Below, piece after piece: positions 28,764 through 32,800 of a stretch of 64,000 nt of DNA. The notes under the pieces are model-generated. The model had not been told where the DNA came from. It did no database searches and saw only the letters and a program-made list of their open reading frames with translations. Every line of letters starts with the position of its first letter. The stretch's first letter is position 1. The stretch lies in contig OZ249436.1 of NCBI GenBank assembly GCA_965235115.1, positions 16,246,001 to 16,310,000 on the forward strand, given 5' to 3'. The translations under genes and the position numbers were made by a program. This stretch comes from Laetmonice hystrix (taxonomy: Eukaryota).

Positions 28764-28814
28764 TTAGACGATGGCCTTGACCTCGGGTAGGTACCGCTCC
28801 CACACCTGCAACAA
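28764..28814 (-). CDS. SNX2: Duplicated alternative terminal exon of the SNX1/2 gene (LLQVWERYLPEVKAIV*)
   Basis: A strong acceptor (long T-rich tract ending TCAG) precedes 51 nt, the same length and phase 0 as the exon at 29922-29872. It encodes a paralogous 16-aa C-terminus. Confidence 0.8.
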   Translation of the reverse strand: MLQVWERYLPEVKAIV

Positions 28815-29871
28815 CTGAAAAAAACAAAAACACAGAATTTAGGGCGGTTGTTTTTAAAAAAAACCGTTGCGGGGACGGTCATCTTCTCGCCATTTTCGAG
28901 GTATAATTTTGAAAATCCGTTTATTGGTGACAAAATCGCCCGACAGGACATGACTGTGCCATGAGAATCGTGGACGAACGTGGATATGTTCATACCCAGT
29001 CGCAGTATATTGGCTGACTTACTCTTGACTCGATGCAAAACGTTATATTTGATATCTTTTATTATTCAGAGAAAGGAATACCACATTGATAATGGACGTG
29101 GGAGTAGTCCTACCACCTATTGTTCAGTCAGATGATTCCTGACTGATTGACCAATGGACTGTCTGACTGCGTGACAGTAAAGACCTTACTCCGTCACTTT
29201 AAGTGACTACACGCATGGTCTGGGTCAACATGTTAACATCTCAAGCAATCTTTTTTGAATGCACATTTTTATGACAATACGATGAATACCACTGAGGGAA
29301 AAGTCTCGGTAATCGTTGTTAGAAATTCCTTGAACGTTTCCTTGTATATTTCTGTGATTTGTGGAATGTGTTTAAACTTTCCGTGTTGTGTGGAAGCGGT
29401 GCAGAATACCTTCCCACATGTCAACAAATCAACAACACTGTATGAACAATATTTTTTTAACAATATTTTTTAAATGATTTTCACACGTTATACACAGTGT
29501 CCCTGTTGCATCACAATAGCTAATAATTCAATCACATTTGTTTTTATCATCTCAGTAGAAGTCGTTTCCTGGAACCACTTGGAGGCCCTCAGTATTTTGT
29601 GTGAGCGTAAACGTTCCTATTATTTGTTATTCATTAACTAACTTCTTGAACTCCATTTTTATTTACATCGTAATTTATCTCTCCACCTTCCATGTTTTTG
29701 TTGTTCAACACTAGTCAGTTTTATTTTTGTAATGAGGATGATAGTTGGACTGGGAAGAGGGTGGTCCTTGCTGAGAGACCACGGAGACCGCCTGCCACAC
29801 TGACCTTAGGTGGGGCGCCCCCTAGTGTCGGAAAGCGGGTCCGCCGACACCAGGGGACCGTGGCTACATCC

Positions 29872-32800
29872 TCAAGCTATGGCCTTCATCTCAGGTAACA
29901 CACCCTCCCAGTGCTTGATTAGCTGAAAGAAAAACACAAATGTTAGTTGCAGACTTTCAATAGTTAGCTTATCAGTACAGGACAGTGTTGCGGGGATAAC
30001 CACATTAGTCCAACTCTAACGTTTATAGGGTACATATTCAACTAATTCACATTCGATCATTCCATTCACATGCTGGCACTTTCAGTCCAAGTTCCACCTG
30101 AAGAAATGCGATAAAACAACTTTAAATTAGGCTACAAAGAAACCTCAGAGAAACAAAGGGAAAGCTATTATAAAGGAAATAATCCTTCCAGAATAGAGTA
30201 GAGTTTCCCAGGGCCTATGCAATAAAAGTAAAACTATCTGAAAATTTTCTGTATCTTTTCTAATTGTTCAACAAAATATCCCTTCGTCGCAGGTCACATC
30301 AGTTCCACTCCATCGTGAATATTAACGCTAAAATGTTACAGGAATGATAAACGACATTACTGGTATGGCACATCTTTACACTGAACCCTGGAACTTGCGA
30401 AGAGAACTCAATATTTCTTTTTTCCCTTTCCAAATGGACGTCTCATTTCCATCGTCAACACTTAAATACTCAAAGGTACCACCTGTGTAATCAAACCCAT
30501 TATCTCTATTATTTATACAATAATGGCAGGAATTTGCACCGTTGCCTTTTAACAGTACTTAGTAGAAAAGGTCCCCGAATTTAAATGCCAATCTGTCATG
30601 CTAAGGTTGGTCTGGAGTGGACAACAGCTCCCATGTGGATAACTGCCCTCTCAAAGCGTTGGTACACGGCCACTTTCTAATTTCCCAACGTTGGTACCAC
30701 TGAGGCGAGAGGTTAGGGGTGACGGGAATGCATCCCCTGGGGCGTCAAGAGCCAAGCATCCCAGGGCGGTGCAATATGAGACTAAAATGTAACGGAAAGT
30801 GGCCCGACATGTCGTACAAAGCACCTCTTCCATTAAGCTAATAACACGCGATGCTTCCCACCATGGCCTCAGTCCAACACACTTCCTGCTTCCATATGCT
30901 AAAAGCAACACTAATGCAAAGCGTTGGTCCCCGTACATGGAGATCTGCAAGCATGGAATGCAGGCTACCAAACAAGTTTACAAGGACATCAGTGAAGCGG
31001 TTAGCATGTTCTGCTAGACCTCCGGTCTGCTCGGTTACCATTTATAGGTAGAGGGTCATATACAGGTTCTGCTAGACCTCTGGTCTGCTCGGTTACCATT
31101 TACATGTATAGGCAGAGGGTCATATACAGGTTCTGCTAGACCCCTGGTCTGCTCGGTTACCATTTATAGGCAGAGGGTCATGTTCTGCTAGACCTCCGGT
31201 CTGCTCGGTTACCATTTATAGGTAGAGGGTCATGTTCTGCTAGACCTCCGGTCTGTTCAGTTACCATTTATAGGCAGAGGGTCATATACAGGTTCTGCTA
31301 GACCTCTGGTCTGCTCGGTTACCATTTATAGGCAGAGGGTCATATACAGGTTCTGCTAGACCTCCAGTCTGCTCGGTTACCATTTATAGGCAGAGGGTCA
31401 TATACAGGTTCTGCTAGACCTCCGGTCTGCTCGGTTACCATTTATGGGCAGAGGGTCATATACAGGTTCTGCTAGACCTCCAGTCTGCTCGGTTACCATT
31501 TATAGGCAGAGGGTTATATACAGGTTCTGCTAGACCCCTGGTCTGCTCGGTTACCATTTATAGGCAGAGGGTCATATACAGGTTCTGCTAGACCCCTGGT
31601 CTGCTCGGTTACCATTTATAGGCAGAGGGTCATATACAGGTTCTGCTAGACCCCTGGTCTGCTCGGTTACCATTTATAGGCAGAGGGTCATATACAGGTT
31701 CTGCTAGACCTCCGGTCTGCTCGGTTACCATCTATAGGTGGAAAGTCATGTTCTGCTAGACCTCCGGTCTGCTCGGTTACCATCTATAGGTGGAAAGTCA
31801 TGTTCTGCTAGACCTCCGGTCTGCTCGGTTACCATCTATAGGTGGAAAGTCATGTTCTGCTAGACCTCCAGTCTGCTCGGTTACCATTTATAGGCAGAGG
31901 GTCATATACAGGTTCTGCTAGACCTCCGGTCTGCTCGGTTACCATTTATAGGCAGAGGGTCATATACAGGTTTTGCTAGACCTCCAGTCTGCTCGGTTAC
32001 CATTTATAGGCAGAGGGTCATGTACAGGTTCTGCTAGACCTCCGGTCGACTCGGTTACCATTTATAGGCAGAGGGTCATATACAGGTTCTGCTAGACCCC
32101 CGGTCTGCTCAGTTACCATTTATAGGTAGAGGGTCATATACAGGTTCTGCTAGACCTCCGGTCGACTCGGTTACCATCTATAGGTGGAAAGTCATGTTCT
32201 GCTAGACCTCTGGTCTGCTCGGTTACCATTTATAGGTAGAGGGTCATGTTCTGCTAGACCTCCGGTCTGCTCGGTTACCATTTATAGGTAGAGGGTCATG
32301 TTCTGCTAGACCTCCGGTCTGTTCAGTTACCATTTATAGGCAGAGGGTCATATACAGGTCCTGCTCGGTTACCATTTATAGGCAGAGGGTCATGTTCTGC
32401 TAGACCTCCGGTCTGCTCGGTTACCATTTATAGGCAGAGGGTCATGTTCTGCTAGACCTCCGGTCTGCTCGGTTACCATTTATAGGCAGAGGGTCATGTT
32501 CTGCTAGACCTCCGGTCTGCTCGGTTACCATTTATAGGCAGAGGGTCATATACAGGTTCTGCTAGACCTCCGGTCTGCTTGGTTACCATTTATAGGCAGA
32601 GGGTCATGTTCTGCTAGACCTCTGGTCTGCTTGGACCAGTAGACCAATAGGTTTTGCACGTGGGTCAAGAGAAAACATGAAAACAGGGCTCGAGTTTGGC
32701 CACTGGCCACCCAGACGGTTTACTGTCCCCTTCTATTTTACTGATGTGGTTGTTTACATTTTTTTACTTCCCCTAGGCATTTATATTTTTTTATTGTTGA

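What the first reader, a model, noticed from the sequence alone, without database searches (positions are those of the whole stretch)
28764..29922. Tandemly duplicated, mutually exclusive last exons give SNX1/2 two C-termini
Seen: two 51-nt phase-0 terminal exons 1.1 kb apart, each with a strong polypyrimidine/CAG acceptor: [16 protein letters not shown] (29922-29872) and LLQVWERYLPEVKAIV* (28814-28764). Both keep the L..xWE..LPE.KAI pattern of vertebrate SNX1/2 (LIKYWEAFLPEAKAIA) but are strongly diverged in DNA, which suggests an old duplication under purifying selection. Each has downstream minus-strand AATAAA candidates (~29660 and ~29060; 27457-27462). Inference: a single invertebrate gene may make two isoforms that differ at the end of the last BAR helix, possibly affecting SNX5/6 dimerisation, and that carry different 3'UTRs. 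The distal exon is invisible in the ORF track.
Basis: partly seen in the sequence, partly recalled or inferred. Interest (0 to 1): 0.72.

Follow-up and report, generated by a model that had tools for sequence, protein, structure and literature searches.

The report
Sorting nexin with two swappable tails
In an animal that is likely an annelid worm, the gene for the membrane-recycling protein SNX1/2 has two diverged copies of its last coding exon; the one assembled RNA contains both, with the first copy ending the protein and the second left untranslated, and skipping the first copy would likely give a second protein tail, a known gene design (as in KRAS) that appears new for this gene.

Summary
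Both 51-nt coding copies are real: they rank 1 and 2 of 3097 open AG-led frames, and synonymous divergence far exceeds replacement divergence (pS 0.80, pN 0.31, p=0.010). The splicing model needs correcting. The single spliced contig of run X4 joins the penultimate exon to the proximal copy, runs 67 nt past its stop to a donor at 29805, then splices onto the distal copy. So the proximal copy is a 118-nt stop-carrying cassette, the copies share one mRNA and one distal 3'UTR, and the distal tail needs cassette skipping, the KRAS4A/4B layout (PMC5945503). No skip junction was seen (one sample, contigs only), so the second isoform is inferred from conservation (about 70%). The exon holds the SNX1 dimer hot spot W511 (PMC10352136); both copies keep it and change its neighbours. 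None of 281 homologous tails shows a second copy. The stop-to-junction distance exceeds the 50-55 nt decay rule. The scan found this layout before in other genes on other DNA (RPL9, eRF1), not in SNX. Verdict: new member of a known kind, moderate interest.

The parts
46351..46461 (-). first coding exon of SNX1/2 (ATG at 46461 inferred; RNA contig covers about the last 53 nt)
43629..43686 (-). coding exon 2
   Evidence: X4 joints; splice sites
43232..43449 (-). coding exon 3 (acidic N-terminal region)
42779..42889 (-). coding exon 4
42214..42355 (-). coding exon 5 (PX domain)
41872..41950 (-). coding exon 6, followed by a GC-AG intron
41331..41523 (-). coding exon 7
34242..34335 (-). coding exon 8 (BAR start)
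33841..34046 (-). coding exon 9 (BAR)
33541..33684 (-). coding exon 10 (BAR)
32879..33031 (-). penultimate constant exon (BAR, Pfam Vps5 E 1.2e-15), phase-0 donor
29805..29922 (-). proximal copy A: 118-nt cassette exon with 16 codons [19 protein letters not shown] (29874-29872) and 67 nt of 3'UTR; donor at 29804
29817..29858 (-). predicted 14-bp RNA stem in the UTR part of exon A, 13 nt after the stop and 12 nt before the donor
   Evidence: (z -2.64, 4 of 200 shuffles)
28815..29804 (-). 990-nt GT-AG intron in the 3'UTR of the inclusion form; holds 4 AATAAA and a low-depth RNA island (29262-29420)
28764..28814 (-). distal copy B: 16 codons LLQVWERYLPEVKAIV and TAA at the start of the true last exon; untranslated in the assembled RNA, coding only if A is skipped (inferred)
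27457..28763 (-). shared distal 3'UTR; RNA contig reaches 27637; only AATAAA of this stretch at 27462-27457 (cleavage site not shown)

Best explanation
This SNX1/2 gene has two diverged tandem copies of its last coding exon; the upstream copy is spliced as a 118-nt stop-carrying cassette onto the downstream copy, and skipping the cassette likely gives a second protein tail on the same distal 3'UTR. Shown: 13 exons, the inclusion form, and copy B as its UTR. Inferred: the skip form 32879>28814 is made in some tissue or stage and yields a 519-aa protein differing from the inclusion form at 7 of the last 16 residues; the swap tunes the BAR dimer interface around the W511-equivalent without breaking it; the duplication is lineage-restricted.
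For: RNA: X4 record of 2752 nt, depth 114.8, has joints at all 10 upstream introns, a loose end at 29925 that is the end of the penultimate exon, and the joint 29805>28814 with CT..AC ends; DNA runs X1-X3 show no such joint. Exon lengths sum to 2751. Selection on B: pS 8.5/10.7, pN 11.5/37.3, Fisher p=0.010; codon-position identity 8, 13 and 7 of 16; same length and stop position; unalignable flanks; 8 of 50,000 neutral simulations at the observed overall divergence reach B's family score. B keeps 7 of 9 near-invariant columns, as A does. B's changes occur in natural divergent family members: Y at position 8 in 12 and V at position 12 in 7 of 281 tails. Both forms are open and 519 aa. B's acceptor is phase 0, so skipping keeps the frame, whereas B is out of frame after A's UTR. 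Precedent: KRAS exon 4B is present in both mRNAs and untranslated when stop-carrying 4A is included (PMC5945503 passage). W511 with F347 is the conserved SNX1 dimer hot spot (PMC10352136 passages).
Against: No skip junction: one X4 contig accounts for all depth over the penultimate exon (36.1 seen, 36.07 expected). This is one sample, and contigs drop rare forms. No relative with two copies was found: 0 of 281 tails double; 67 of 69 cluster members of 100 aa or more have an ordinary tail and 2 end non-homologously. B scores 50.7, below the range of the 46 close family tails (56.2-74.6), and has no CTRAY branch-like site within 60 nt where A has 3. The selection signal cannot tell current use from use that ended recently. 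A's stop is 67 nt from the junction, beyond the 50-55 nt rule (PMC8339359 passage). No structural or binding test of either tail was run.
Confidence: 0.66

Rival explanations
1. Copy B is a recently retired exon: it was coding for most of its history but now only supplies the acceptor and 3'UTR, and the gene makes one protein (tail A).
For: Only the inclusion form is assembled. B is further from the family than A (best identity 10 of 16 against 13 of 16). Its strong acceptor is explained by the UTR splice alone.
Against: Intact frame, length and stop, 7 of 9 near-invariant residues kept, pS much greater than pN; at 25% neutral drift only 0.5% of simulations would still score this well.
Confidence: 0.2
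2. One reading: A and B are mainly alternative terminal exons chosen by polyadenylation, with separate 3'UTRs.
For: 4 AATAAA in the A-B intron (1.0 expected; 30 of 2000 shuffles). A depth-7 RNA island lies in that intron, with none in the 1 kb of upstream intron examined. Such alternative poly(A) is the usual route for duplicated C-termini in human (PMC8373072 passage).
Against: The assembled RNA splices A onto B at depth 114.8, and A's donor is the best of 77 GT sites in the stretch. As a minor extra route it stays open (about 0.3).
Confidence: 0.07
3. The cassette is mainly a dosage switch: including A puts a junction 67 nt after the stop and sends the mRNA to nonsense-mediated decay, and B is the productive tail.
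For: 67 nt exceeds the 50-55 nt rule.
Against: The inclusion form is the one that assembled. A is the more family-like tail, which a poison exon would not need. Whether annelid decay follows the junction rule is unknown; the search on it returned 0 papers.
Confidence: 0.07

Closest known systems
KRAS4A/4B (PMC5945503, passages; PMC8373072, passages and supplementary table; PMC9882654, passages)
   Same: An upstream homologous exon with its own stop is included or skipped; the downstream exon is in both mRNAs and is translated only on skipping. Exon sizes are similar (124 nt against 118 nt).
   Different: KRAS skipping is documented; here it is inferred. KRAS 4A has its stop at the exon's 3' end; here it is 67 nt from the junction. 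PMC9882654 derives 4A from NRAS exon 4, not from local tandem duplication. The KRAS tail sets membrane targeting; here it is the end of a dimer helix.
Tandem exon duplication-derived substitutions (PMC8373072, PMC9741552; passages and supplements searched)
   Same: Adjacent homologous exons swap a C-terminus; 77 of 236 human events are C-terminal.
   Different: No SNX gene is in either supplement (0 hits). Those papers attribute C-terminal swaps to alternative poly(A) use or frameshifting skips; here a shared last exon is used.
SNX1/SNX2 of ESCPE-1 (PDB 8afz, 8a1g, 4fzs; PMC10352136 passages; PMC3512392 passages)
   Same: PX-BAR (Vps5) protein with the same 16-residue end and the W511-equivalent kept.
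   Different: All 281 tails examined are single. Both copies here replace F514 and A518 equivalents that are F in 264 and A in 267 of 281 tails.
Drosophila eRF1A/eRF1H (PMC9226519, passages)
   Same: An invertebrate housekeeping gene with alternatively spliced extreme C-termini; the minor form is tissue-enriched (33% of head transcripts, almost none in ovary), which shows that one sample can miss such a form.
   Different: Unrelated protein. The passages read do not describe its exon layout; that comes only from an earlier scan note.

Membership tests
SNX1/2 (Vps5-type SNX-BAR) | PX domain followed by Vps5-type BAR domain | tested here: met
   Penultimate exon hits Pfam Vps5 at E 1.2e-15. P0006 (PX 170-262, Vps5 281-512) maps by tblastn across the window's exons. 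The spliced product is 80% identical to P0006 over its C-terminal two thirds.
SNX1/2 (Vps5-type SNX-BAR) | C-terminal helix with the dimer hot-spot tryptophan (human W511) | tested here: met
   W at codon 5 in both copies, 176 of 176 tails; numbering from the 8afz_A alignment.
SNX1/2 (Vps5-type SNX-BAR) | Forms homodimers and heterodimers with SNX5/6 and tubulates membranes | not testable with these tools
   The spliced isoforms were not available as input for folding tools; no job was run.
Tandem exon duplication-derived substitution | Two adjacent homologous exons, each with intact frame and splice signals | tested here: met
Tandem exon duplication-derived substitution | Purifying selection on both copies | tested here: met
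   pS 0.80 against pN 0.31, p=0.010; neutral simulations.
Tandem exon duplication-derived substitution | Each copy is translated in some transcript | tested here: inconclusive
   A: in the assembled RNA. B: no skip junction in one sample of contigs.
Tandem exon duplication-derived substitution | Pair conserved in other species | tested here: inconclusive
   No double tail in protein records. The only annelid genomic locus fetched (L001) ends before the last exon.
Mutually exclusive terminal exons | The two exons never occur in one mRNA, and each has its own poly(A) site | tested here: not met
   The X4 contig holds both, joined 29805>28814.
KRAS4A/4B-type stop cassette | Upstream exon has stop plus donor and is spliced onto the downstream exon, which becomes UTR | tested here: met
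KRAS4A/4B-type stop cassette | Skipping yields the second C-terminus | tested here: inconclusive
   In frame; junction not seen.

The most novel reading that the evidence does not exclude
One SNX1/2 gene uses a regulated last-exon swap to retune the W511 dimer hot spot, so that tissues shift between SNX1-type homodimer coats and ESCPE-1 heterodimer coats, doing by splicing what vertebrates may do with two paralogues; and its main mRNA survives with a junction 67 nt past the stop, next to a hairpin, giving a natural test of junction-dependent decay in a lophotrochozoan.
Probability: 0.2. Interest if true: 0.68.

Novelty: new member of a known kind. Interest (0 to 1): 0.4.

Why it matters
The last 16 residues of SNX1/2 are nearly fixed across animals and hold the dimer hot spot. 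A natural pair of variants from one gene would show which neighbours of W511 can change and whether they shift homodimer against SNX5/6 heterodimer choice; a double mutant at this hot spot breaks homodimers but not heterodimers (PMC10352136). The design itself is common (77 human C-terminal cases), so the gain is for endosomal sorting biochemistry and annelid annotation, not a new mechanism. The case also warns that duplicated 'last exons' read from DNA may be stop cassettes.

Tried and rejected
No whole genome is held, so paralogues elsewhere in the genome were not checked. The run search listed no holder on record as RNA; X4 is taken as RNA only because its contig is spliced at 12 junctions. 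Homologue searches with the penultimate exon gave 57 longer and 5 near-length hits; the closest are gene calls that read into the intron, so they say nothing about last exons. The profile search of 1.84 billion representatives became a full-length profile, not the tail profile intended, and returned a general family survey. A third decayed copy at 29428 was considered and not accepted: no AG, 4 of 300 shuffles, but 3 equal or better chance hits in 127,900 frames. Rfam gave 3 sub-threshold miRNA matches at an AT-rich repeat. The repeat finder showed no long shared repeat between the copies. Readthrough into copy B was rejected as out of frame. Allele differences listed none in either coding copy, but 10 rows were hidden and fewer than one is expected, so this is uninformative. 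No structure or complex was predicted. Literature: no paper on a duplicated SNX1/2 last exon (2 unrelated listings; 0; 0); the library lacks most subscription papers.

Full report
Observation. Each follows a pyrimidine tract and CAG in phase 0, matching the phase-0 donor at 32879. Against a profile of 46 distinct family tails they score 58.3 and 50.7; the next best of 3097 open AG-led 16-codon frames in the window scores 20.0, and both have a stop at codon 17. They are not chance.

The gene. The penultimate exon hits Pfam Vps5 (E 1.2e-15). Its closest named homologues are annelid sorting nexin-2 proteins (Paralvinella, Lamellibrachia, Capitella), so the animal is likely an annelid (inference). 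Joints in run X4 define 11 constant exons from 46461 to 32879, including one GC-AG intron. Either tail completes an open 519-aa protein, 80% identical to P0006 and 77% to the Capitella protein over the C-terminal two thirds. tblastn finds no other duplicated exon of this gene in the window.

RNA evidence. Four runs of one sample hold the region. X1-X3 are contiguous with the DNA. X4 is spliced: one 2752-nt contig (depth 114.8) runs from the penultimate exon into 29922, past the TGA to 29805, skips 990 nt with GT-AG ends, and continues from 28814 to 27637. Exon lengths add up to 2751. So copy A is a 118-nt internal exon with 67 nt of UTR, and copy B begins the true last exon and is untranslated, out of frame, in this mRNA. 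A's donor is the best of 77 GT sites between the copies. Against my reading: no skip junction appears. Depth over the penultimate exon is fully explained by that one contig (36.1 against 36.07), although only 12 of 329 loose ends were displayed and contigs drop rare variants. A 168-nt, depth-7 contig lies in the A-B intron, which also has 4 AATAAA where 1.0 is expected (30 of 2000 shuffles); a minor unspliced or proximally ended form is possible.

Is copy B still coding? Between A and B, 8.5 of 10.7 synonymous sites and 11.5 of 37.3 replacement sites differ (Fisher p=0.010). Identity by codon position is 8, 13 and 7 of 16. Flanks match no better than shuffles (local scores 24 and 20 against shuffle maxima 30 and 25). 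Neutral mutation of A to the observed 42% divergence reached B's family score in 8 of 50,000 trials (all). B keeps 7 of 9 near-invariant residues, as does A. B's changes recur in distant natural family members (12 of 226 motifs score at least as close to B as to the usual tail). This shows long coding constraint but cannot exclude recent retirement. B falls below the score range of close family tails and lacks a CTRAY site within 60 nt of its acceptor.

Relatives. Of 415 proteins held, 281 have the tail motif and none has two; best identity is 13 of 16 to A and 10 of 16 to B. In 10 clusters from molluscs, amphioxus and insects (84 of 99 members listed), 67 of 69 members of 100 aa or more have an ordinary tail and 2 end non-homologously. 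In another 10 clusters, 12 of 14 further members have an ordinary tail. No genomic locus of a relative that includes the last exon could be obtained. The duplication is therefore old by synonymous divergence yet probably lineage-restricted (inference from absence in protein records, which is weak).

Mechanism. Shown: inclusion gives tail A and a UTR of about 1.44 kb if the AATAAA at 27462 is used. Inferred: skipping gives tail B and a UTR of about 1.32 kb from the same last exon. The tails differ at 7 of 16 positions. Codon 5 is the equivalent of human W511, which with F347 forms the conserved dimer hot spot; the double alanine mutant loses homodimers but not SNX5 heterodimers (PMC10352136, passages). 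Both copies keep W but replace positions 8 and 12, which are F in 264 and A in 267 of 281 tails and fall on the same helical face by simple periodicity (the proline at 10 makes this rough). A modest tuning of dimer choice is the likeliest effect; it is untested. The stop of A is 67 nt from the junction, past the 50-55 nt decay rule (PMC8339359, passage), yet this is the form that assembled. A predicted 14-bp stem sits between stop and donor (z -2.64; not significant over the whole exon, z -0.61); its role is unknown.

Comparison with what is known. KRAS has this layout: exon 4B is in both mRNAs and is not translated when stop-carrying 4A is included (PMC5945503, passages). C-terminal swaps by duplicated exons number 77 of 236 human events (PMC8373072, PMC9741552; passages), and no SNX gene is in their supplements. 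PMC9882654 (passages), PMC3512392 (passages) and PMC9226519 (passages) were also read in part. Searches for a described SNX1/2 case found none. Earlier scan notes report the same design in RPL9, eRF1 and a CUB gene on other DNA, and nothing for this gene.

Verdict. Real duplication, real selection, corrected splicing model, second isoform likely but unseen. New member of a known kind; interest 0.40.

Noticed in passing
window 23389-23940 (+): Single 183-codon frame that looks like a secreted prohormone: hydrophobic start, KR sites and three cysteine-rich peptides. No Pfam match; the best Atlas hit scored only 0.75.
   Followed up: partly
window 41524-41871 (-): GC-AG intron in the SNX1/2 gene, supported by the X4 joint.
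   Followed up: yes
window 29871-29806 (-): After A's UGA the frame stays open for 21 codons to a TAA one base before the donor, with the hairpin 13 nt after the stop; a readthrough-like layout, though the open stretch is within chance.
   Followed up: partly
window 29428-29372 (-): A short stretch resembling the first nine residues of copy A, without an AG acceptor; the low-depth X4 island starts 8 nt into it. Not accepted as a third copy.
   Followed up: yes
window 39820-41289: High-copy repeat in intron 7 (summed depth above 50,000 in X1); one X1 contig joins across it, suggesting an insertion present on one haplotype only.
   Followed up: no
window 49250-56000 (-): Exons of an AMP-binding (acyl-CoA synthetase-like) gene upstream of SNX1/2; 5 of 6 frames tested hit AMP-binding families, 3 above the curated cut-off.
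   Followed up: partly
window 31008-32631, 26043-27345, 25204-25807, 24412-24695: Tandem arrays of 58, 118, 32 and 56 nt units; the 58-nt array fills half of the intron before copy A.
   Followed up: no
L001 1999-2151; proteins P0001-P0003, P0187-P0191: Gene calls in other animals read into the intron at the same phase-0 position, showing that the intron before the 16-codon last exon is conserved and that this exon is often missed by annotation.
   Followed up: yes
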